The notes beneath the pieces are model-generated. The model searched no databases. It was not told the DNA's origin and saw only the letters and a list, made by a program, of their open reading frames with translations. The translations under genes and the position numbers were made by a program. This document shows positions 5,314 to 56,008 of a stretch of 64,000 nucleotides of DNA, one piece after another. Source of the stretch: Gemmatimonadales bacterium. Its GTDB lineage: Bacteria; Gemmatimonadota; Gemmatimonadetes; Gemmatimonadales; GWC2-71-9. The stretch is taken from positions 4,708-68,707 of the forward strand of contig JBOHSN010000006.1 of NCBI GenBank assembly GCA_050733215.1. Direction: 5' to 3'. The first letter of the stretch is position 1; every line of letters begins with the position of its first letter.

Positions 5314-6444
5314 GTGACTCAAGCGCCCCAATCTAGTCCTGCCCTCCGCCGGCTACCAGCCTGTGCGCTCGTGTGTTCGCTCGCGCTCGCGACACCGTTC
5401 GCGCGCGTGCTCGAGGCGCAGGACGACGCCCGCGCGACCCGTGACGCGCCGTTCGCGCGCGCCGCCGCCGGCACCGTGCTCGGCACGATGCGGAGCGGCG
5501 CGGAGGTGTCGGCCGGCCGCACGCGCGCCGGCTGGACCGAGGTGACGCTCGAGGGCTGGATCTACGAGCCGTCCGTGGGACGCGACCGGCGCGAGGGGTT
5601 CCAGATCGGCGTAGCGGCGCGGGGAGGGGAGAACCTGCGCGCGGAGCCGAACGGCCGTGTGCTCGCGCGGCTCCGCTATGGCGCGCTGCTCGAGCGCACC
5701 GGCGCCCGCGGCAACTGGGTGCGGGTGCGCCGCAAGGGTTGGGTTCCACGATCGGCCGTGGAGCGGGCGGTGGAGACGGCGGTGGCGCCTGCGGCGCGGC
5801 GGGAGAGGGCGGCAGAGGGCGGGAGAGGACCGGAAAGTGCGGCTGCTGCGACGGCCAGGCGCGACTCCACTCCGCCGGACACGTCCCGCCCTCTCCCGCC
5901 GTCTCCCGCCCCCTCCCGCCCTCCGGAGGAGTCCCGCATTCAGGTCACCCGATCGACCGCGCTCCACGCCGCTCCCGATGCCGCCGGGCTCGGCACCCTC
6001 CAGCCGGGGGTCGATGGCCGCGTGCTGGCGCGCGCGGGCGAGTGGGTGCGCGTGCAGCTCGAGGGCTGGGTGCGCGCAGCGGACGTCGGCCCGCCCGCCG
6101 ACGGCGCGATGGTGGGTGTCTCGGCGGCGGAGCTCCGGGCCGAGCCCGCGCGGTACGTCGGCCAGCTGGTCGAGTGGCGGCTCCAGTTCATTGCCGTTCA
6201 GGAGGCGGACGAGCTCCGGAGCGAACTCCCCGCCGGACAGCCCTTTCTGCTCACGCGGGGGCCACTGCCGGAGCCGGGCTTCGTCTATGTGATCCTGCCC
6301 CGCAACCAGGCGGAGCAGTTCCGCGCTCTTTCGGGGCTCCAGGAGCTGGTGGTCCACGTCAGGATCAGGGCGCCGCGCACGAAGTACCTGACCACCCCAG
6401 TGGTCGAGCTGAGCTCGGTGGTGAGTGGCCTGCCGGGGAAGTAG
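5314..6444 (+). CDS. Secreted hypothetical protein with two SH3-like (SH3_3) modules separated by a repeat-encoded linker
   Basis: An in-frame GTG at 5314 gives a signal-like N-terminus (LPACALVCSLALATPFARVLEAQ). GWTEVTLEGWI and GEWVRVQLEGWV are SH3b-like. The part of ORF 4822..6444 upstream of 5314 is antisense to gpmI. Confidence 0.6.
   Translation: MTQAPQSSPALRRLPACALVCSLALATPFARVLEAQDDARATRDAPFARAAAGTVLGTMRSGAEVSAGRTRAGWTEVTLEGWIYEPSVGRDRREGFQIGVAARGGENLRAEPNGRVLARLRYGALLERTGARGNWVRVRRKGWVPRSAVERAVETAVAPAARRERAAEGGRGPESAAAATARRDSTPPDTSRPLPPSPAPSRPPEESRIQVTRSTALHAAPDAAGLGTLQPGVDGRVLARAGEWVRVQLEGWVRAADVGPPADGAMVGVSAAELRAEPARYVGQLVEWRLQFIAVQEADELRSELPAGQPFLLTRGPLPEPGFVYVILPRNQAEQFRALSGLQELVVHVRIRAPRTKYLTTPVVELSSVVSGLPGK
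5799..5926. repeat. Inverted pair of decamer arrays (GCGGGAGAGG x3 / CCTCTCCCGC-like x3, 52-nt spacer) lying in frame inside a CDS
   Basis: 5799-5828 reads gcgggagagg gcggcagagg gcgggagagg. 5890-5919 reads cctctcccgc cgtctcccgc cccctcccgc. The same family occurs at 45621 and 53668. Confidence 0.85.
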
Positions 6445-6604
6445 GCTATCCGCTATCCGCTAACCGCTATCCGCTAACCGCTAACCGCTATCCGCTATCC
6501 GCTATCCGCTAACCGCTATCCGCTGTACCTTCCAACGAGTTACTGCGCGCGATGCCATCAACGCCCTGCGGATAGCGGATAGCCGATAGCGGATAGCGGA
6601 TAGC
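6445..6604. repeat. Inverted heptamer arrays: GCTAWCC x11 (6445-6521) and GGATAGC x5 (6570-6604), 43-48 nt spacer
   Basis: Direct reading. The arrays start 1 nt after the TAG stop at 6442-6444 and end 6 nt before the ATG at 6611. Confidence 0.95.
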
Positions 6605-6610
6605 CCCCAA

Positions 6611-6955
6611 ATGAACGACCTCCTCAGGCAACGCATTCTTCGCGCCCTGGACCGGCTCGATGACGAGCGGGCCTATCAGGCGTTGGACTACGTCGAGTTT
6701 CTCTCGAGCAGGTACGCGGCTCGCGCGCGGCCCTCCGGTCTGCTCGCGCAGCTCACCGAGGCCGTCGAAGATACGATGCGCGCAGGCAAGCTTCCGATCC
6801 AGGCGATCAGCGGCACCATGGGCGTGGTGGACAGCGCCGCCAAGGTCATGCGCGGCCTCGCCGCGGCGGGCCAGGCGGTGGTGGAGGAAGCGGTGAAGGC
6901 TGCGGCGCCGCCGCCACCGCCGCCACGCGCGCCGAGGGCCGATACGGCGAGCTGA
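6611..6955 (+). CDS. Hypothetical small protein (helical, with a Pro-rich tail)
   Basis: 114-aa ORF MNDLLRQRILRALDRLDDERAYQALDYVEFL... with a plausible amphipathic composition. I recognise no family and there is no obvious SD sequence. Confidence 0.45.
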   Translation: MNDLLRQRILRALDRLDDERAYQALDYVEFLSSRYAARARPSGLLAQLTEAVEDTMRAGKLPIQAISGTMGVVDSAAKVMRGLAAAGQAVVEEAVKAAAPPPPPPRAPRADTAS

Positions 6956-8487: not shown

Positions 8488-8503
8488 CAACTGCAGCCGC
8501 GAA

Positions 8504-8570
8504 GGAACGCCAATGCACGCGAATGAGAGTCCATTCGCGCTCATTCGCGCAAATTCGCGGCTTCGGTTCC
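8504..8570. repeat. Hairpin of decamer repeats (CGCGAATGAG-type left arm; NNCATTCGCG x3 right arm)
   Basis: ggaacgccaatgcacgcgaatgagag / tccattcgcg ctcattcgcg caaattcgcg gcttcggttcc. The outer GGAAC...GTTCC ends also pair. Confidence 0.75.
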
Positions 8571-11098: not shown

Positions 11099-12559
11099 AT
11101 GAGCCGAATCCGCCAGGCCGTCGGGCTCACCTTCGACGACGTACTCCTCGTGCCGCGGCATTCGACCGTGCATCCGCGCGAGGTTTCCACCCTGAGCCGG
11201 CTCACCCGCTCCATCCCGCTCAACATCCCGCTCATCTCCGCCGCCATGGACACCGTCACCGAAGCCGAAATGGCCATCGCCATGGCGCGCGCCGGAGGCA
11301 TCGGGGTGATCCACAAGAACATGACGATCGACCGCCAGGCGGCCGAAGTCGATCGGGTGAAGCGCAGCGAGAGCGGGATGATCCTCAACCCGATCACGCT
11401 GGGGCCCGAGCGTCCGGTGCGCGAGGCCTACGCGCTGATGCGGCGGTTCAAGATCTCGGGTGTCCCCATCGTGGACGGCGAGGGCCGCCTCATCGGGATC
11501 ATCACCAACCGCGATCTCCAGTTCGAGCGGAATCTCGACCAGCCGATTCGCGACGCGATGACGAAGGAAAAGCTCGTGACCGCGCCGGTCGGCACCGATC
11601 TCGACGAGGCCGAGCGGATCCTCGCGCGCCACCGTATCGAGAAGCTGCCGGTGGTGGACGCCAGGGGCGTGCTCAAGGGCCTGATCACGGTCAAGGACAT
11701 CTTCAAGCGCCGCGAGCATCCTGACGCCAACAAGGACCAGCACGGCCGTCTCCGGGTCGCTGCCGCCGTGGGTGGCGCGCCCGATGCCGTCACCCGCGCG
11801 CGCGCCCTGGTCGGCGCCGGCGTGGATGTGCTCTGCGTGGACTCGGCACACGGGCACAGCGAAGCCGTGCTCCAGGCGCTCGACGCCATCAAGGAGAGCT
11901 TCCCCGACGTCGAAGTCATCGCGGGCAACGTCGCCACCGAGGCGGGAGCGCGCGAGCTGGTCCGGCGCGGGGCCGACGCCGTCAAGGTGGGCATCGGTCC
12001 GGGCAGCATCTGCACCACCCGCGTGGTCACCGGCGTGGGTGTTCCGCAGGTCACCGCCATCCAGGACGCCGGGCGCGGCGCGGGCGACGTGCCGATCATC
12101 GCCGACGGCGGCATCAAGTACTCCGGCGACGTCGTCAAGGCGATCGCCGCCGGGGCGTCCGCCGCGATGATGGGATCGATGCTCGCTGGCACCGAGGAGA
12201 GCCCCGGCGAGGCGGTGCTGGCCGAGGGCCGGCGCTTCAAGATGATCCGCGGCATGGGCAGCCTGTCGGCCATGCAGGACGGCAGCGCCGACCGGTACTT
12301 CCAGGAAGGCGAGATGACGCCCACCAAGATGGTGCCCGAGGGCATCGAGGGCCGCGTCCCCTACAAGGGCCCGGTGGCCGACGTGCTCTTCCAGATGGTG
12401 GGCGGGCTCCGGAGCGGGATGGGGTACTGCGGCGTCGCCAACCTCGCGGCGCTCCAGTGCGACGTCGAGATGATCCGCGTAACCGCGGCGGGCCTGCGCG
12501 AGTCACACCCGCACGACGTCACGATTACGCGCGAAGCACCGAACTACAGTAAGCAGTGA
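11099..12559 (+). CDS. guaB: IMP dehydrogenase
   Basis: [22 protein letters not shown]..., a CBS pair, the catalytic [11 protein letters not shown] loop and GGIKYSGD. The ATG at 11099 lies inside ORF 10985..12559. Confidence 0.95.
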
Positions 12560-12683
12560 GCAGTAAGCAGTAAGCTGGGGATTCCGGTGCCCGGGCAGAT
12601 CCCGTACGCCCCCGCTCACCGCTTACCGCTCACCGTTTACTGCTCACCGTTTACTGCTCACTGCTCACTGCTCACTGCTCACC
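12548..12683. repeat. Inverted heptamer arrays: AGTRAGC x4 (12548-12575) and GCTYACY/GTTTACT x10 (12614-12683), 38-nt spacer
   Basis: Direct reading. The left arm contains the guaB stop codon (TGA 12557-12559). The right arm ends 17 nt before the permease ATG. Confidence 0.95.
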
Positions 12684-22438: not shown

Positions 22439-23935
22439 ATGGCGATTGACAGCCTGAGCGAGTTCATCCGCGAGATCGAGAAGATCGGCGAGCTGGTACG
22501 GGTGACGCACCCGGCGAAGGCTCGCCTGGAGATTGCGGAGATTGCCGACCGGTGCATGAAGAGCGCCGGCGGCGGGCCGGCGCTCTTCTTCGAGCACGTG
22601 CTCCTCGACGATGGGCGGCGGAGCGCGTACCCTGTCGCCATCAACCTCTACGGCTCGATGCGGCGCATGTGTCTGGCGCTGGGGGTGAACGCGCTGGATG
22701 AGATCGGCGGGCGCATCAGCGAGCTGCTCGAGCTCAAGGTGCCGGAAGGACTCTTCGGCAAGCTCTCGATGCTCCCGCGTCTGGCCGAAGTCGCCAGGTT
22801 TCCGCCGCGGACCCGGAGCGGCAAGCCGCCGTGCCAGCACACGGTCACGCGGGGGGACAACGTGGATCTCTCCGTTATTCCGTTTCTCACGACCTGGCCC
22901 AAGGACGGCGGACCCTATATCACGCTGCCGATGGTGATCACAACCGATCCTGTGCGCGGCATCCGGAACGTCGGGATGTACCGCGTCCAGGTGCTCGGCC
23001 GGAATACGCTCGCGATGCACTGGCAACGCCACAAGGTGGGCGCGGCGCACTGGCGCGAGATGGCGGCGCGCGGCGAGAAGATGCCGGTGCTCATCGCGCT
23101 CGGCGGTGACCCCGCGAGCATCTACTCCGCCTCGGCGCCGCTCCCACCGACCATCGACGAGTTCATCTTCGCGGGCTTTCTCCGGCGCTCGCCGGTGGAG
23201 CTGGCGAAGGCGGTCACCTGCGACCTGGACGTGCCGGCCGAGGCGGACATCGTCCTCGAGGGATACATCGAGCCGGCCGAGCCGCTCGCGCTCGAGGGGC
23301 CGTTCGGCGACCACACGGGGTTCTACTCGCTCGCGGACTACTACCCCACGGTGCACGTCACGGCCGTCACGATGCGGCGGGATCCGGTGTACCCGGCCAC
23401 GCTGGTGGGCCGCCCGCCGATGGAGGACTACTACCTCGGTCACGCCACCGAGCGGATCTTTCTGCCGCTGCTCCGGCTCACCCTGCCCGAGATCGTTGAT
23501 TACCATATGCCCGCGCCCGGCATCTTCCACAATCTGGTGTTCGTCAGCATCGACAAGCAGTATCCCGGGCAGGCGTGGAAGGTGATGAACGCGCTGTGGG
23601 GCCAGGGGCTGATGTCGCTGGCCAAGGTGATCGTCGTCGTGGACAAGCAGGTGAACGTGCGCGATGCCGACGAGGCGTGGTGGGTGGCGCTCAACAACAT
23701 CGACCCCGAGCGCGATGTCCGCTTTACCATGGGCCCGATGGACGTGCTCGACCACTCGAGCCGGGCCTTCACCTATGGCAGCAAGATGGGGATCGACGCG
23801 ACGCGAAAGTGGAAGGAGGAGGGGTTCGACCGGGAGTGGCCGGAGGTGATCGCGATGGACGAGGCGACCAAGCGGCGCGTAGACGAGATCTGGCCACAGC
23901 TTGGGATCCGGTTGGAGGTGAGAGGTGAGAGGTGA
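22439..23935 (+). CDS. ubiD: UbiD-family (prenyl-FMN-dependent) decarboxylase
   Basis: 498 aa, colinear with UbiD/MqnL-type decarboxylases (...GGPYITLPMVITTDP..., ...FGDHTGFYS...). A ubiX gene is nearby. Confidence 0.9.
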   Translation: MAIDSLSEFIREIEKIGELVRVTHPAKARLEIAEIADRCMKSAGGGPALFFEHVLLDDGRRSAYPVAINLYGSMRRMCLALGVNALDEIGGRISELLELKVPEGLFGKLSMLPRLAEVARFPPRTRSGKPPCQHTVTRGDNVDLSVIPFLTTWPKDGGPYITLPMVITTDPVRGIRNVGMYRVQVLGRNTLAMHWQRHKVGAAHWREMAARGEKMPVLIALGGDPASIYSASAPLPPTIDEFIFAGFLRRSPVELAKAVTCDLDVPAEADIVLEGYIEPAEPLALEGPFGDHTGFYSLADYYPTVHVTAVTMRRDPVYPATLVGRPPMEDYYLGHATERIFLPLLRLTLPEIVDYHMPAPGIFHNLVFVSIDKQYPGQAWKVMNALWGQGLMSLAKVIVVVDKQVNVRDADEAWWVALNNIDPERDVRFTMGPMDVLDHSSRAFTYGSKMGIDATRKWKEEGFDREWPEVIAMDEATKRRVDEIWPQLGIRLEVRGER

Positions 23936-24014
23936 GAGGGAGTACCGAGGCGAGCTCACGAGCCCGACGCCTGCGCCGGAGCCCCCGCTCACGTCTCACC
24001 GCTCACGTCTCACC
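23917..24014. repeat. Inverted heptamer arrays: GGTGAGA x3 (23917-23937) and GCTCACG/TCTCACC x4 (23987-24014)
   Basis: Direct reading. The ubiD stop (TGA 23933) and the only in-frame start of ubiA (GTG 23925) both lie in the left arm. Confidence 0.95.
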
Positions 24015-24902
24015 GCCCGCGAAGGCCAGACGTTTGCCGGCGAGTCCCTCCTCGTCCGCTACGCCAACTTCGTCAAGCTGCCCCATACCCTCTTCGCCCT
24101 GCCGTTCGCGCTGCTCGGCCTGGTGGCGGCCTCGATGGAGGTGCCCGTAACGTGGCGCACCGTGCTCCTGGTGGTTCTCGCGTTCTCGGCGGCGCGCTGG
24201 GTGGCCATGGGCTTCAACCGGATCGCCGACCGGGAGTACGACGCGCGGAACCCGCGCACCCGGAATCGCGAGCTCCCGCGCGGCGCGCTCTCCCTGCCGC
24301 AGGCGTGGGCATCGATCATCCTGGCGGCGGCGCTGTTCGTGCTCGCGGCCGCGCTGCTCAACCGGCTCTGTCTGGCGCTGAGCCCGCTGGCGCTCGCCTG
24401 GGTGATGACCTACAGCTTCGCGAAGCGATTCACCTGGTGGCCGCATCTCTGGTTGGGCCTGAGCCTGGCCATCGCGCCGGTGGGCGGGTGGCTGGCCGTG
24501 ACCGGCGCCTGGAGCGAGCCGTGGTGGCTGCTGGCACCGATCACGGTGGCGGTGGCCACGTGGGTGGCCGGCTTCGACATCTTCTACGCCCTGCCCGACG
24601 AGGCGTTCGACCGGAGCGAGGGACTCCGGAGCGCCGTGGTGCGGCTCGGCGAGAGGCGCGGCATCCTCCTGGCGAAGGTGCTGCACGGGATCACGATCCC
24701 GGCTCTGGGGCTGTTCGGCTGGGCCGCCGGGTTCGGCCGGCTGTACTTCGCCGGCCTCCTCGTCGCGGCGGGCATTCTGATCTACGAGCACCGCCTGGTC
24801 CGGCCTGGTAACCTGACGCGCCTCGATGCGGCGTTCTTCACCATGAACGGTGTGATGAGCGTGACGGTCTTTCTGTTCGCGCTGGGGGATCGGCTGCTGT
24901 GA
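23925..24902 (+). CDS. ubiA: UbiA-family aromatic prenyltransferase (4-hydroxybenzoate polyprenyltransferase-like)
   Basis: Multi-TM protein with NRIADREYDARNPRTRNR (the NxxxDxxxD region). The first about 33 codons are repeat-derived. There is no other ATG/GTG/TTG before the conserved N-terminus (VRYANFVKLPHT). Confidence 0.8.
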   Translation: MRGEREYRGELTSPTPAPEPPLTSHRSRLTAREGQTFAGESLLVRYANFVKLPHTLFALPFALLGLVAASMEVPVTWRTVLLVVLAFSAARWVAMGFNRIADREYDARNPRTRNRELPRGALSLPQAWASIILAAALFVLAAALLNRLCLALSPLALAWVMTYSFAKRFTWWPHLWLGLSLAIAPVGGWLAVTGAWSEPWWLLAPITVAVATWVAGFDIFYALPDEAFDRSEGLRSAVVRLGERRGILLAKVLHGITIPALGLFGWAAGFGRLYFAGLLVAAGILIYEHRLVRPGNLTRLDAAFFTMNGVMSVTVFLFALGDRLL

Positions 24903-53654: not shown

Positions 53655-53667
53655 AGGGGAAAAGTAG

Positions 53668-53792
53668 GCGGGAGAGGGCGGGAGGGGGCGGGAGGGGGAG
53701 GGAGAGGGAGCCGGATCGGGCGGCTCCGCTGTTCACGCCGGGGGCGTTCCTGCCTCTCCCGCCCTCTCCCGCCCTCTTTCGCCCTCTCCCGC
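53668..53792. repeat. Inverted decamer arrays GCGGGAGRGG x4 (53668-53707) and CCTCTYYCGC x4 (53753-53792), 42-45 nt spacer
   Basis: Direct reading. The right arm encodes the last about 19 codons of trpE. The left arm ends 14 nt upstream of the cyclase start codon. Confidence 0.95.
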
Positions 53793-55268
53793 CGCAAGCG
53801 CCAGTGCAAGCAACACCGCCCGCGCCTTCGCCTCGGTCTCGCGGAGCTCGGCCGCCGGGTCGGAGTCGGCCACGATGCCGGCGCCGGCCTGCACCCAGGC
53901 CCGTCCGTTCCGCATGACGCAGGTGCGCAGCGCGATCGCGGTATCGAGTACCTGCGCCCCCCAGCCGACGTATCCCACGGCGCCCGCGTACGGTCCACGG
54001 CGCACCGGCTCGAGCTCGTCGATGATCTCCATCGCGCGGACCTTGGGCGCGCCGCTCACCGTGCCGGCGGGGAAGCAGGCCGCGAGCGCGGCCACGGCGT
54101 CGAGCTCCGGCCGCAGCCGGCCGCGCACCTCGCTGACGAGGTGCATGACGTGCGAGTACCGTTCGATCGTCATGAACTCCGTGAGGTGCACCGAGCCGAA
54201 CTCGGCGACCCGGCCCACGTCGTTCCGCCCCAGGTCCACCAGCATCAGATGCTCGGCCCGCTCCTTCGGGTCGGCTTCCAGCTCCGCGGCGAGCGCAGCG
54301 TCGCGCTCGGGCGTGTCGCCCCGCAGCCGGGTGCCGGCGATCGGCCGGAGCGTGACCTCCCGGTCCTCCACCCGCACGAGAATCTCGGGCGAGCTGCCGA
54401 CGATATGGACGTCGTCGAAGTGCAGGCAGTAGAGATACGGCGCCGGGTTGAGCGCGCGGAGGTAACGGTATGTCAGAAACGGATCGGGGGCGGGGAGATC
54501 CAGCCGGCGGGAGAGCACCGTCTGAAAGGTGTCGCCCGCGGCAATGTACTCCTTGATCCGGCGTACGTCGCGCTCGAAACGGGTGTCGGTGTAGGGCGAC
54601 GTTACGGACGGGACAGCGGCCGGCTCCATCGGCAGCGGCCGCAGTATGGCGGGACCGGCGAGACGCGCCAGCCAATCGTCGATGCGGGCTTCGGCAGTTT
54701 CGTGCAGCCGGGCCAGCGTCGCCTCGTCCGCGCCGTCCGGCACATCGACGTTCGCGATCACGGTCGCGCGATTGTACAGATTGTCGAGCACGAGGAGCGT
54801 GTCGGCCACCATGAGGAGCGCGTCCGGCAGATCGCGGTCGTCCGGCGGGGGTGACGGCAACGACTCGAGGGTGCGCACGATGTCGTACCCGAGGTAGCCC
54901 ACGGCGCCGCCGGTGAAGCGCGGCAGCCCGGGCACCTCCACCGGGGCGTAGCGCCGCATCGCGCGGCCGAGGTGCTCGAGCGGGGCGATGTCCTCGGCCT
55001 CGAGCTGCCAGCCCGCCGCCGCGGTCCACCGCTCGCAGCGTCGCCCGCGGTAGCGGAACACCTCGCGCGGATCGGTGGCCAGAAACGTGTAGCGGGCCCA
55101 TCGCTCGCCCCCCTCGAGCGACTCGAGCAGGAAGCCGAAGGGGCCCCGGTGCAGTTTCGCGAATGCCGCGACCGGCGTATCACCGTCGAGCAGCACCTGA
55201 CGGGTGACCGGCACGATGGCGCCGCCCGCCCGGGCGCCGGCCCTGATCGCCTCCAGGCCGACGCTCAC
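53733..55268 (-). CDS. trpE: Anthranilate synthase component I
   Basis: 511 aa and colinear with TrpE (...LESLEGGERWARY..., ...GAPKVRAMEII..., GAGIVADS). The C-terminal tail AAGEGERGRERAGEAGTPPA is repeat-derived. Confidence 0.9.
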   Translation of the reverse strand: MSVGLEAIRAGARAGGAIVPVTRQVLLDGDTPVAAFAKLHRGPFGFLLESLEGGERWARYTFLATDPREVFRYRGRRCERWTAAAGWQLEAEDIAPLEHLGRAMRRYAPVEVPGLPRFTGGAVGYLGYDIVRTLESLPSPPPDDRDLPDALLMVADTLLVLDNLYNRATVIANVDVPDGADEATLARLHETAEARIDDWLARLAGPAILRPLPMEPAAVPSVTSPYTDTRFERDVRRIKEYIAAGDTFQTVLSRRLDLPAPDPFLTYRYLRALNPAPYLYCLHFDDVHIVGSSPEILVRVEDREVTLRPIAGTRLRGDTPERDAALAAELEADPKERAEHLMLVDLGRNDVGRVAEFGSVHLTEFMTIERYSHVMHLVSEVRGRLRPELDAVAALAACFPAGTVSGAPKVRAMEIIDELEPVRRGPYAGAVGYVGWGAQVLDTAIALRTCVMRNGRAWVQAGAGIVADSDPAAELRETEAKARAVLLALALAAGEGERGRERAGEAGTPPA

Positions 55269-55861: not shown

Positions 55862-56008
55862 GGTGAGAGGCAAATGGTGAGCGGTGAGCGGTGAGCGGAT
55901 CGGAGGCATGATGACTCAGTGCGTTGTCCGGGGGTTGGCAGTCTGGACCGTCCCGCTTCTCGTGTACTGCTTACCGCTCACCGCTCACCGCTCACCGCTT
56001 ACCGCCCA
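55862..56008. repeat. Inverted heptamer arrays: GGTGAGM x4 (55862-55868, 55876-55896) and CCGCTYA-type x5-6 (55967-56008), flanking the start codon of the plus-strand gene
   Basis: Direct reading. The SD (GGAGG 55902) and ATGATG (55908-55913) lie in the loop. The right arm is translated as LPLTAHRSPLTAQ. Confidence 0.95.

What the first reader, a model, noticed from the sequence alone, without database searches (positions are those of the whole stretch)
6445..6604. Largest module: 11 x GCTAWCC facing 5 x GGATAGC, filling the whole gap between two genes
The array starts 1 nt after the TAG stop at 6442-6444 and ends 6 nt before the ATG at 6611, which leaves no room for a Shine-Dalgarno sequence. 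The arms are unequal (77 versus 35 nt), which implies slippage-type expansion of one arm. Two unit variants (GCTATCC and GCTAACC) are interleaved. TAA in the variant units (6461, 6475, 6482, 6510) covers all three plus-strand frames. TAG in the right arm (6573, 6580, 6587, 6594, 6601) does the same.
Basis: seen in the sequence. Interest (0 to 1): 0.6.

Follow-up and report, generated by a model that had tools for sequence, protein, structure and literature searches.

The report
Gene-less heptamer hairpin between coupled genes
The stretch is a real 160-base hairpin made of mirrored 7-base repeats wedged between two formerly overlapping genes; it is one of about 54 such elements in this soil bacterium, and each repeat family in the genome matches the repeats around its own small four-helix-bundle (IVP/Avd-like) gene, which suggests a protein partner for these unexplained bacterial repeats.

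Summary
Window 6445-6524 holds 11 GCTAWCC units and 6570-6604 holds 5 reverse-complement units (4 GGATAGC, 1 CGATAGC). Together they fill the gap between the TAG stop at 6442-6444 and the ATG at 6611.

It is not a one-off. The genome holds at least 245 such "array - core - inverted array" modules, and 54 of them use this unit. Their orientation (polarity) is the same in every case. They have no target-site duplications, and they sit tight against stop codons.

The sister species G005 has the same module at the same junction with 5 and 4 units and a homologous core, so arm length does change between species. The downstream 114-aa gene is conserved from residue 1 in 41 of 41 relatives. It stayed under purifying selection with the module in place (dN/dS 0.08), so it is evidently still expressed.

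New here: all 7 IVP-family (PF05635) genes of this genome lie inside such hairpins, each with a different repeat unit. Across congeners, dispersed GCTA-type arrays occur only where an IVP gene carries GCTA-type arms, and the unit variant ("dialect") matches.

I read the finding as a gene-less member of an IVP-associated repeat family. This resembles the REPIN/RAYT relationship, but I found no transposase linked to it.

The RNA-level role is inferred, not shown. I propose that a ribosome terminating on the upstream gene opens the base of the stem and exposes the downstream start. RNase III appears absent from this order.

The parts
5371..6444 (+). Upstream gene, an SH3_4-domain protein. The start is approximate; the stop TAG is at 6442-6444.
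   Evidence: Pfam SH3_4, E = 4e-8. My codon-usage gene call gives 5371-6444. The C-terminus is alignable in all congeners.
6445..6524 (.). Left arm: 11 heptamers GCTAWCC (7 GCTATCC, 4 GCTAACC) plus a partial GCT.
   Evidence: It ranks fourth-equal in length among 139 arms of this unit in the genome.
6525..6567 (.). Core (loop region) of 43 nt, not itself a strong palindrome.
   Evidence: It is 60-73% identical to the core of the orthologous G005 module, depending on where the boundaries are set. It shares the motif CGCGATGCCAnCAACGCC with the module at C1:51638.
6568..6604 (.). Right arm: GC followed by 5 heptamers (4 GGATAGC, 1 CGATAGC), the reverse complement of the left-arm unit.
   Evidence: CGATAGC is the complement of GCTATCG, the variant that alternates in the left arm of G005.
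6605..6610 (+). Six-base remnant spacer CCCCAA before the start codon.
   Evidence: It is comparable to CCCGA before the ATG in G005 and G001, and to CCCCC in G012.
6611..6955 (+). Downstream gene: a conserved 114-aa protein with no Pfam family, starting at ATG 6611.
   Evidence: It is found in 41 of 41 Gemmatimonadales genomes and aligns from residue 1. No Pfam hit. dN/dS between G000 and G005 is 0.083, with dS 0.69.

Best explanation
What it is (mostly shown): a gene-less member of the GCTATCC family of 'inverted tandem-array hairpin' elements. These have (unit)n, a variable core, then (reverse-complement unit)m, always in that order. The genome has about 54 copies of this family and at least 245 copies across roughly a dozen unit families. 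The elements sit between genes, tight against stop codons, and have no target-site duplication.

This copy lies in a junction where the SH3 gene and the 114-aa gene originally overlapped (ATGA) or were 2-12 nt apart. It was already present in the common ancestor of this species and its sister G005. Since then the arms have changed length by gain and loss of units (11/5 here, 5/4 in G005), while the unit sequence stayed at the family consensus and the core drifted.

How the family is organised (shown as a correlation): every IVP/Avd-like four-helix-bundle gene (PF05635) in the genome sits in the loop of such a hairpin, each with its own unit. The units around these genes are the units of the main gene-less families. 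Across congeners, dispersed GCTA-type arrays occur only where an IVP gene has GCTA-type arms, in the same unit variant (GCTATCC, GCTATCA or GCTRTGA).

I therefore read the gene-less modules as satellites of IVP cassettes, in the way REPINs relate to their RAYT gene. Their arms are kept uniform either through the cognate IVP protein (a possible sequence-specific binder; inferred) or through recombination between arms. Some recombination is indicated: between the sister species the core is flipped at 3 of 9 junctions and replaced at 2.

How this copy works in RNA (inferred): the two genes are co-transcribed and the module folds into a stem of about 35 bp. The base of that stem brings together the bases just after the stop and the bases at -3 to -18 of the ATG. 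A ribosome terminating at 6442-6444 must melt the outer one to two units, which transiently frees the initiation region of the 6611 gene. Translational coupling would then survive the 166-nt insertion. The stem would also shield the upstream cistron from 3' exonucleases. No RNase III was found in this order, so the stem would not be cut as it is in rRNA intervening sequences.
For: Anatomy and non-randomness.

Family:
- 245 inverted array pairs genome-wide and 54 GCTATCC modules.
- Polarity is identical in 236 of 236 assigned modules.
- No excess of flanking direct repeats over shuffled controls.
- 42 of 54 stop-facing edges lie within 5 nt of the stop for this family, and 134 of 237 for all families.
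- Modules are depleted between divergent genes: 15 of 208, against 12% of junctions.

Orthology and dynamics:
- The locus tree places G000 and G005 as sisters with 99/99 support.
- Arm counts and core identities for 9 junctions are.
- G014 and G010 align straight across about 9 of 10 junctions, with decayed remnants at one of them.
- G006, G016 and G012 are occupied at many of the same junctions but with lineage-specific units.

Downstream gene still functional.

IVP link:
- 7 of 7 PF05635 genes are flanked by inverted arrays with 7 different units.
- At least 21 of 29 IVP loci in relatives have the same layout.
- IVP proteins with GCTA-type arms fall in one weakly supported group (SH-aLRT 83) that also holds IVPs with other or no arms; those with G-rich 9-10-mer arms group together (SH-aLRT 97).
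- A GCTA-type IVP cassette is present in 6 of 6 congeners that have dispersed GCTA-type arrays, and in 0 of 5 that lack them.
- The sister species G013 and G016 have the orthologous IVP cassette with GCTATCA and GCTATCC arms respectively, matching each genome's dispersed arrays.
- At junction L9, G005 and G012 hold an IVP cassette where G000 holds a gene-less module.

Published parallel: the Coxiella 23S IVS carries an S23p ORF, a 28-bp terminal stem and heptamer repeats whose number varies between strains (PMC4990558).

RNase III: 0 of 31 genomes for PF14622 and for PF00636, with positive controls detected, and no PS00517 motif in G000.
Against: - The IVP link is correlative. The genomes are related, so there are perhaps 3-4 independent lineages rather than 11.
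- The G000 IVP cassette nearest to this family has mixed GCTATCG/GGTCATC arms, not pure GCTATCC. No ortholog of the G005:C474 IVP (GCTATCC arms) is in this 90%-complete assembly.
- The cores of gene-less modules show no blastn similarity to the interiors of the IVP cassettes, so the modules are not simple internal-deletion derivatives.
- Some unit families (CACAGAGAA, CGGAGGACG, GATGGACC) have no IVP gene in this assembly.
- A 120-aa four-helix bundle has no known catalytic activity that could copy or move DNA.
- Nothing about transcription, RNA ends or translation was measured. The coupling model rests on geometry alone.
- My gene calls come from an ad hoc codon-usage caller, so start-codon distances are approximate.
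- The array length was not verified in reads.
Confidence: 0.6

Rival explanations
1. Palindromic microsatellite evolving purely in place. An old intergenic hairpin acquired tandem duplications by replication slippage. Template switching copies changes from one arm to the other, and ectopic recombination between look-alike arrays keeps units uniform across loci. No trans-acting protein is involved. IVP genes sit in such hairpins only because hairpin loops tolerate cargo.
For: Unit number changes between sister species, and the local variant is amplified within this array. Cores are flipped or exchanged between orthologous modules, which needs only recombination between arms. There are no target-site duplications. 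Cores are unrelated to IVP cassette interiors. The same core type occurs with different arm units. Earlier notes on this genome reached this reading.
Against: It does not explain why all 7 IVP genes lie in such hairpins, each with a different unit. It does not explain why the presence and unit variant of dispersed GCTA-type arrays track the arms of an IVP gene in 6 of 6 congeners with the arrays and 0 of 5 without. It does not explain why polarity is invariant in 236 of 236 modules. New sites have no homology to seed conversion.
Confidence: 0.25
2. REPIN-like element mobilised by the single-copy Y1 (IS200/RAYT-like) transposase of the genome.
For: One PF01797 gene is present in G000 and in 17 of 18 congeners, and it appears vertically inherited. 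The elements are palindromic, dispersed, intergenic and lack target-site duplications, as with Y1-type transposition. REPIN/RAYT systems are vertically inherited and long-lived (abstracts listed).
Against: The Y1 gene is not flanked by any module within 700 nt. One gene would have to serve about a dozen unrelated unit families. The gene is present in congeners that have no GCTA-type arrays at all. I saw no GTAG or CGTC tag at the module ends shown; PMC3733652 gives this tag as the feature that defines REP super-families (abstract; the paper was not read further).
Confidence: 0.06
3. Selected transcription terminator or attenuator that separates the two genes. The repeat structure would be incidental.
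For: The position directly after a stop codon, enrichment between convergent genes (44 of 208, against 12% of junctions) and depletion between divergent genes. The stem is very stable.
Against: There is no U-tract after the stem, and the consensus scan finds no terminator here. The two genes overlap or nearly touch in most relatives, so they were one transcription unit. No promoter-like site lies in the core, yet the downstream gene is still under purifying selection. Related modules are translated inside genes.
Confidence: 0.07
4. Assembly artefact: the copy number or the whole array was created or distorted by short-read metagenome assembly.
For: Several contigs of this MAG and of G005 end inside such arrays. 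Reads could not be examined.
Against: The array lies in the middle of a 71-kb contig, is only 80 nt long and has an aperiodic variant pattern. An independent assembly (G005) has the same module at the same junction, and a third (G006) has one as well.
Confidence: 0.02

Closest known systems
Convergent ('tandemly inverted') GGGAATC heptamer arrays of Xanthomonas campestris/citri (Rehm et al. 2015, PMC4692102)
   Same: Intergenic tandem heptamers, 70-75 pairs per genome in convergent orientation able to form stem-loops. Four units is the commonest length. There is a strong bias to lie next to or overlapping a stop codon. Lengths differ between species while the pair type is kept. Here too the mode is 4 units, and 42 of 54 stop-facing edges lie within 5 nt of a stop.
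   Different: The Xanthomonas unit is G-rich and was interpreted through G-quadruplexes. GCTATCC cannot form one, yet it shows the same 4-unit mode. That paper describes one unit per genome and no associated protein. Here there are about a dozen unit families, conserved core subfamilies, and an IVP gene for each of 7 families.
ORF-bearing intervening sequences (IVS) of 23S rRNA with the S23p/IVP gene (Coxiella, Leptospira, Xanthomonas, Brucella; Warrier et al. 2016, PMC4990558)
   Same: A long terminal stem formed by inverted repeats (28 bp in Coxiella) encloses a loop. The gene family is PF05635. Tandem heptamers next to the ORF vary in number between strains. In this genome the same gene family sits in the loops of the same kind of hairpin.
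   Different: The finding has no ORF in its loop. It lies in an mRNA operon, not in rRNA. IVS stems are cut by RNase III, which I could not find in 31 genomes of this order. The IVS literature I read does not describe dispersed gene-less copies.
REPIN/REP elements and their RAYT transposases (Bertels and Rainey 2011, PMC3116915; RAREFAN preprint)
   Same: Tens to hundreds of short palindromic intergenic elements, mostly after gene ends. One single-copy, vertically inherited protein gene is embedded in its own repeat type. Repeat sequence is specific to a lineage (abstracts).
   Different: The arms here are tandem arrays of variable length rather than a fixed REP sequence. The embedded gene is a four-helix-bundle protein, not a Y1 transposase. 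The Y1 gene that does exist is not flanked by modules.
Cyanobacterial and Beggiatoaceae heptamer repeats (STRR; TAACTGA repeats, MacGregor 2015, PMC4679880)
   Same: Abundant intergenic heptamer arrays placed within a few nucleotides of coding-sequence boundaries, with a patchy phylogenetic distribution. A trans-acting binder was proposed there too.
   Different: Those are almost all direct arrays (169 direct sets and 1 indirect), mostly just upstream of start codons, and do not form hairpins.

Membership tests
Inverted heptamer SSR pairs (Xanthomonas type) | Two tandem arrays of one heptamer in convergent orientation on opposite strands, close together, in an intergenic region | tested here: met
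   11 units face 5 reverse-complement units 43 nt apart, between two genes.
Inverted heptamer SSR pairs (Xanthomonas type) | Many such pairs per genome, close to stop codons, with lengths that vary between related species | tested here: met
   54 pairs of this unit. 42 of 54 stop-facing edges lie within 5 nt of a stop. Arm counts differ at 7 of 9 orthologous pairs compared with G005.
IVS-type IVP cassette (PF05635 gene enclosed by inverted arms) | An IVP/S23p ORF in the loop | tested here: not met
   The core is 43 nt with no ORF. PF05635 hits lie elsewhere in the genome.
IVS-type IVP cassette (PF05635 gene enclosed by inverted arms) | Arms of the same unit type and polarity as those around an IVP gene in the same genome | tested here: inconclusive
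   The C3:17054-17603 cassette has GGCTATC (that is, GCTATCG) units mixed with GGTCATC units, in the same polarity. Pure GCTATCC arms flank IVP genes in G005, G006 and G016, but no such gene is in this 90%-complete assembly.
REPIN/RAYT | A cognate Y1 transposase gene flanked by the repeat | tested here: not met
   The single PF01797 gene (C157:3444-3785) has no array within 700 nt.
REPIN/RAYT | GTAG or CGTC tag at one end of the palindrome (PMC3733652) | tested here: not met
   Arm ends are GCTATCC/GGATAGC. By eye I saw no conserved GTAG or CGTC tag at the module boundaries shown; this was not a formal scan.
MITE (DDE-transposon derivative) | Target-site duplication flanking terminal inverted repeats | tested here: not met
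   Flanking direct-repeat lengths at 222 modules match shuffled left/right pairings (147 against an expected 152.6 with none).
Rho-independent terminator | GC-rich stem-loop followed by a U-tract | tested here: not met
   The stem is followed by CCCCAAATGAACG, and the consensus scan finds no terminator at the module.
Any Rfam family | Match at or above the gathering score | tested here: not met
   The only hit is a plant microRNA model at 40 bits against a gathering score of 110. This reflects a generic long hairpin.

The most novel reading that the evidence does not exclude
Each short-repeat family in this genome is the set of cis sites of its own IVP/Avd-like four-helix-bundle protein. On this reading, a non-enzymatic, probably pentameric nucleic-acid binder sits inside a hairpin made of its own recognition units. 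It maintains (or helps spread) tens of gene-less hairpins at operon junctions, and repeat 'dialects' co-evolve with the protein. This would be a REPIN/RAYT-like partnership built on a different protein, flourishing in a lineage that lacks RNase III. It would give a function both to the S23p/IVP family (unknown since the early 1990s) and to the heptamer repeats of Xanthomonas, cyanobacteria and others.
Probability: 0.3. Interest if true: 0.85.

Novelty: new variant of a known kind. Interest (0 to 1): 0.62.

Why it matters
Heptamer repeats are the most over-represented long simple repeats in many bacteria, and their cause is unknown. The IVP/S23p protein family has had a structure but no function for decades. 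In this one genome the two line up: 7 IVP genes, 7 repeat units, and tens of gene-less hairpins per unit. Across related species the repeat variant follows the arms of the IVP gene.

That turns two open questions into a direct binding experiment: cognate against non-cognate units. It also allows a comparative test on public genomes.

The locus itself shows that a stem of about 35 bp can sit 0 nt after a stop codon and 6 nt before a start codon between formerly overlapping genes without the downstream gene decaying. This makes it a natural test case for translational coupling across a hairpin. The apparent lack of RNase III in the order may be what lets such stems persist in mRNAs.

Tried and rejected
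- Rfam: only a sub-threshold microRNA-model hit, rejected as a generic hairpin.
- Sigma-70 promoter or intrinsic terminator in or near the module: none found.
- Target-site duplications: none above the shuffled expectation, so a classical MITE is rejected.
- RAYT/REPIN: the only Y1 transposase gene has no modules nearby, and it is also present in congeners that lack this family. Rejected as the main explanation.
- 'Single burst of insertions in the G000+G005 ancestor': I held this, when the pattern appeared in only 4 of 18 congeners. I dropped it when the more distant G006, G016 and G012 proved to have modules at the same junctions, some with altered units.
- RNase III processing by analogy with rRNA IVS: dropped as the working mechanism. 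PF14622 and PF00636 gave 0 of 31 genomes with positive controls working, and the PROSITE signature gave no hit in G000.
- Gene-less modules as internal-deletion derivatives of the IVP cassettes: no blastn-short similarity between 191 cores and the 7 cassette interiors.
- The 100% identical IVP protein in G005 (contig C212): discounted. The whole 2.7-kb locus is 98.8% identical to G000, against 80-93% elsewhere, which points to a mis-binned contig.
- Stop codons in all frames as a purpose-built translational insulator: rejected. They are a by-product of a 7-nt period, and several families lack them.
Full report
**1. The observation**

Window 6445-6521 holds eleven in-register heptamers, 7 GCTATCC and 4 GCTAACC in the order T T A T A A T T T A T, followed by a partial GCT. 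After a 43-nt core, five heptamers of the reverse complement lie at 6570-6604: GGATAGC, GGATAGC, CGATAGC, GGATAGC, GGATAGC.

Tandem Repeats Finder scores the arms 132 and 67. The upstream ORF stops at TAG 6442-6444, and the array begins at the next base. Six bases (CCCCAA) separate the right arm from the ATG at 6611.

The RNA folds at -83.9 kcal/mol against -52.9 +/- 3.6 for dinucleotide shuffles (z = -8.7). The short arm can pair with the long arm in seven registers at 89-95% complementarity. Rfam gives only a far sub-threshold hairpin match. The consensus scan finds neither a promoter nor a U-tract terminator.

**2. The surroundings**

- The upstream gene encodes an SH3_4-domain protein.
- The downstream gene encodes a 114-aa protein with no Pfam family. 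It is present in 41 of 41 Gemmatimonadales genomes searched and aligns from its first residue, so ATG 6611 is the real start.
- In most relatives the two genes overlap (ATGA) or are 2-12 nt apart. They were therefore one tightly coupled unit, and the 166-nt spacer here is derived.
- dN/dS for the 114-aa gene between this genome (G000) and the other species with the same module (G005) is 0.083 at dS 0.69. This is within the range of module-free comparisons, 0.02-0.07. The gene has stayed functional with the hairpin 6 nt upstream of its start.
- SD-like motifs precede only about 33% of my predicted starts, against 12% background. The missing SD is therefore not exceptional in this organism.

**3. 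A genome-wide family**

The window is C6:4708-68707 of a 3.97-Mb, 198-contig, 69.6% GC assembly. A TRF scan finds 245 cases of a tandem array followed within 250 nt by an array of its reverse complement, with periods of 6 to 10. Fifty-four use GCTATCC.

The order is invariant within each family. GCTATCC always precedes GGATAGC, GGTGAGC always precedes GCTCACC, and so on, for 236 of 236 assigned modules.

I made a simple codon-usage gene caller (3,668 genes, 88.6% coding). With it:

- None of the 54 GCTATCC modules lies inside a gene.
- 42 lie between same-strand genes, 6 between convergent genes and 1 between divergent genes.
- 42 of 54 edges that face a gene's 3' end lie within 5 nt of the stop codon. 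Edges that face a start codon have a median distance of 16 nt.
- For all families the figures are 134 of 237 within 5 nt of a stop, and a median of 28 nt to starts.
- About a dozen modules of this family fill a stop-to-start gap as completely as the one in question.

Flanking direct repeats are no longer than in shuffled left/right pairings, so there are no target-site duplications. The commonest arm length is 4 units. The 11-unit arm is among the five longest of 139 arms. GCTAACC is rare genome-wide, 11 of 677 units, and 4 of those are here.

**4. Cores**

The segments between the arms fall into multi-copy subfamilies:

- a 57-58-nt palindromic type;
- a 57-nt asymmetric type;
- a 68-71-nt palindromic type.

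149 core pairs are at least 75% identical although their flanks are unrelated. The same core type occurs with different arm units, for example CGAGCCTCCG...CGGAGGCTCG with both GCTATCC arms and TCGGTCG arms. Several 9-mer families share one core type. The core of the present module is a minor type that shares CGCGATGCCAnCAACGCC with C1:51638.

**5. The same junction in relatives**

- G005 reads TGA, then five left units (GCTATCC alternating with GCTATCG), a core that aligns with ours (GTAACTTCCAGCCGTTAC...CGCGATG), four right units, CCGA, then ATG.
- A tree of the 2.6 kb around the locus places G000 and G005 as sisters (99/99 support). G014 and G010 come next, then G012.
- G014 and G010 have 9-nt spacers like those of the outgroups G002 and G001.
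- G012 has TAG-GACATAGCCCCC-ATG. This looks like a single right-arm unit in G012's own unit variant followed by the same C-run as here. I regard it as a possible remnant.
- G006, in another clade, has 3 left and 3-4 right GCTATCC-type units at this junction, with a core that resembles ours only in its right half.

The module is therefore at least as old as the G000/G005 split. Its arm lengths have changed (11/5 against 5/4). The variant units (GCTAACC here, GCTATCG in G005, whose complement CGATAGC is in our right arm) have been multiplied within the arrays.

**6. Twelve other junctions**

I joined the flanks of 12 other GCTATCC modules into one query and searched six congeners. I then fetched the junction sequences.

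G005 is occupied at 10 or more of the 12 junctions. Among the 9 that could be compared:

- Arm counts differ at 7, for example 4/6 against 7/7 and 3/4 against 5/6. One is 4/4 in both.
- Three cores are collinear: 0.73, 0.86 and 0.97 identity.
- Three are clearly flipped: 0.81-0.91 identity to the reverse complement, against 0.66-0.71 in the same orientation. A fourth (L2) leans the same way (0.74 flipped against 0.65).
- Two are of a different core type altogether.

Recombination between the inverted arms, and exchange between modules, therefore happens on this time scale.

G014 and G010 align straight across about 9 of 10 junctions. At one junction they keep short decayed arrays (AGCTGATAGCTCATAGCTGAT).

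The more distant G006, G016 and G012 are occupied at many of the same junctions. G012 uses GCTATCA/GCTATGA/GCTGTGA units, and G016 partly uses GCTATCA.

Pattern counts confirm species-specific unit variants ("dialects"). Hits for three tandem units with up to 1 mismatch:

| Genome | GCTATCC x3 | GCTRTSA x3 |
|---|---|---|
| G000 | 325 | 4 |
| G005 | 389 | 9 |
| G006 | 75 | 0 |
| G016 | 42 | 24 |
| G012 | 0 | 115 |
| G013 | 0 | 119 |

Neither pattern occurs in the other 12 congeners.

Unit identity is thus kept uniform across dozens of dispersed loci within a genome while differing between genomes. Slippage within single arrays cannot do that.

**7. The link to IVP genes**

At one of the twelve junctions (L9), G005 carries about 500 nt containing an IVP-like gene split between two reading frames. 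It lies between GGGCTAT and CCCATAG arrays, whereas G000 has a gene-less module there. G012 has the same kind of cassette at that junction, with arrays in its own unit variant.

I then searched G000 for PF05635 (23S_rRNA_IVP, the Avd-like four-helix-bundle family). It has 7 such genes. All 7 lie between inverted tandem arrays, each with a different unit:

| Contig | Unit of flanking arrays |
|---|---|
| C3 | GGCTATC (= GCTATCG) mixed with GGTCATC |
| C67 | AGTGTG |
| C130 | GGCGGGAGAG |
| C82 | GGCGGTAAG |
| C12 | GAGCAGAG |
| C110 | GAACAGACGG |
| C109 | GGTRAGC |

Six of these are the units of the large gene-less families, and the polarity is the same.

In relatives across the order, at least 21 of 29 IVP loci show the same layout with yet other units. 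In a tree of the proteins, those with GCTA-type arms fall in one weakly supported group (SH-aLRT 83) that also holds IVPs with other or no arms, and those with G-rich 9-10-mer arms group together (SH-aLRT 97).

IVP genes with GCTA-type arms exist in all six congeners that have dispersed GCTA-type arrays, and the unit variant agrees:

- G000: C3
- G005: C474, with more than 17 GGATAGC units
- G006: C98, GCTATCC
- G012: C142, GCTRTGA
- G013: C99, GCTATCA
- G016: C301, GCTATCC

The G013 and G016 cassettes sit at the same junction, so they are orthologous but carry different unit variants. No such cassette is in G014, G010, G009, G002 or G001, which lack the arrays.

After finding this I looked up the scan's earlier notes. 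They describe IVP genes bracketed by heptamer arrays in many other genomes. The earlier notes on this genome had read the gene-less hairpins as microsatellites evolving in place.

In print, the Coxiella 23S rRNA IVS has an S23p ORF, a 28-bp terminal stem and tandem heptamers whose number varies between strains. The Xanthomonas S23p is a pentameric ring (PMC4990558).

**8. What argues for caution**

- The association is a correlation among related genomes.
- The G000 cassette closest to this family has mixed arms, and no ortholog of the G005:C474 gene is in this 90.6%-complete assembly.
- The cores of gene-less modules have no detectable similarity to cassette interiors.
- Three or four unit families have no IVP gene in this assembly.
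- A single Y1 transposase gene exists in 17 of 18 congeners. It is not flanked by modules, and it is present where the family is absent.

**9. How this copy most likely works**

Shown: it is a stable, old, gene-less family member in a former overlap junction. Its arms change by whole units. The downstream gene remains under constraint.

Inferred: the two genes are still co-transcribed. In the fold, the outermost pairs join 6436-6460 to 6588-6608. A ribosome with the stop codon in its A site occupies roughly the next 10-13 nt of mRNA; this figure is general knowledge of the ribosome's mRNA channel, not measured here. It must therefore open the outer one to two units, which frees about -18 to -3 of the ATG. 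Upstream translation would then unmask the downstream start, a known class of translational coupling. This would explain why so many modules sit 0-5 nt after a stop and can reach to within a few nt of a start.

The stem should also block 3' exonucleases, as REP stems do (knowledge of E. coli REPs, not tested here).

I first expected RNase III cleavage, as in rRNA IVS. However, neither RNase III Pfam domain was found in any of 31 genomes of the order, with positive controls working, and G000 has no PS00517 motif. If that absence is real, it may be what allows hundreds of long stems in mRNAs.

**10. Comparison and verdict**

The closest published description is the convergent GGGAATC arrays of Xanthomonas. 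These also have a mode of 4 units, lie next to stop codons and vary in length between species (PMC4692102). The defining features of that kind are met. The shared 4-unit mode for a unit that cannot form a G-quadruplex argues against the quadruplex explanation offered there.

The finding is not an IVS-type cassette (no ORF), not a REPIN (no flanked RAYT and no GTAG or CGTC tag seen by eye), not a MITE (no target-site duplication) and not a canonical terminator (no U-tract).

The element is real, and its arm lengths change on an evolutionary time scale. The newer result is the one-gene-per-repeat-family relationship with IVP proteins, which I could not find in the papers searched.

Noticed in passing
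whole genome G000 and 30 relatives (no window coordinates): Neither RNase III Pfam domain (PF14622, PF00636) was found in any of 31 Gemmatimonadales genomes, several of them 100% complete. The same searches detected it in 8 control bacteria. G000 also has no PROSITE PS00517 motif in six frames. RNase III is near-universal in bacteria, so the order may lack it.
   Followed up: partly
G005:C212 (locus L063) against G000:C3:15679-19035 (locus L062): This 2.7-kb stretch is 98.8% identical between the two assemblies, including a 100% identical IVP protein. Other orthologous DNA between them is 80-93% identical. The likely cause is a contig from a G000-like strain binned into G005 (8% contamination), or a very recent transfer.
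   Followed up: partly
G000 C1:8401, C104:3866, C13:33481 and their G005 orthologs (loci L052, L054, L056): The cores of orthologous modules are inverted between the sister species (0.81-0.91 identity to the reverse complement). At C1:51638 and C120:6673 the core is of a different subfamily. The segment between the arms therefore flips and is exchanged.
   Followed up: yes
G000 C134:3668-3788; G005:C334:5540-6056; G012:C144:15194-15692; G014:C50:32488-32851: One junction holds a gene-less GCTATCC module in G000 and an IVP cassette in G005 (gene split between two frames) and in G012. G014 and G010 have an unrelated ~100-aa ORF there (not identified), with no arrays.
   Followed up: partly
G000 C157:3444-3785 (minus strand): A single-copy IS200/RAYT-like Y1 transposase gene with an HVH motif. 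It is present in 17 of 18 congeners, absent from the two other families of the order sampled except for a few hits, and not flanked by repeats.
   Followed up: partly
window 6611-6955: The 114-aa protein is conserved across the whole order (41 of 41 genomes) with no Pfam family. It has a very conserved centre (TEAVEDTMRAGKLP.QAISGTMG..DSAAKVMRGLAAAGQAVVEEAV) and a variable proline-rich tail. It is always downstream of the SH3 gene.
   Followed up: no
window 5798-5923, 8498-8559, 12547-12683, 23915-24016, 53667-53793, 55876-56005: Six further inverted-array modules of other unit families lie in the same window: GGCGGGAGAG twice, CGCGAATGAA, RGTRAGC, GAGGTGA/CCGCTCA and GGTGAGC. The first of them lies inside the upstream SH3 gene.
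   Followed up: no
G000 contig ends C11:2, C62:24021, C130:8329, C137:7302; G005 C447 and C55 ends: Contigs of both MAGs often end inside GCTATCC arrays. The pairs C62/C130 and G005 C447/C55 carry the same core on both ends. These modules therefore break short-read assemblies, and the counts given here are lower bounds.
   Followed up: no
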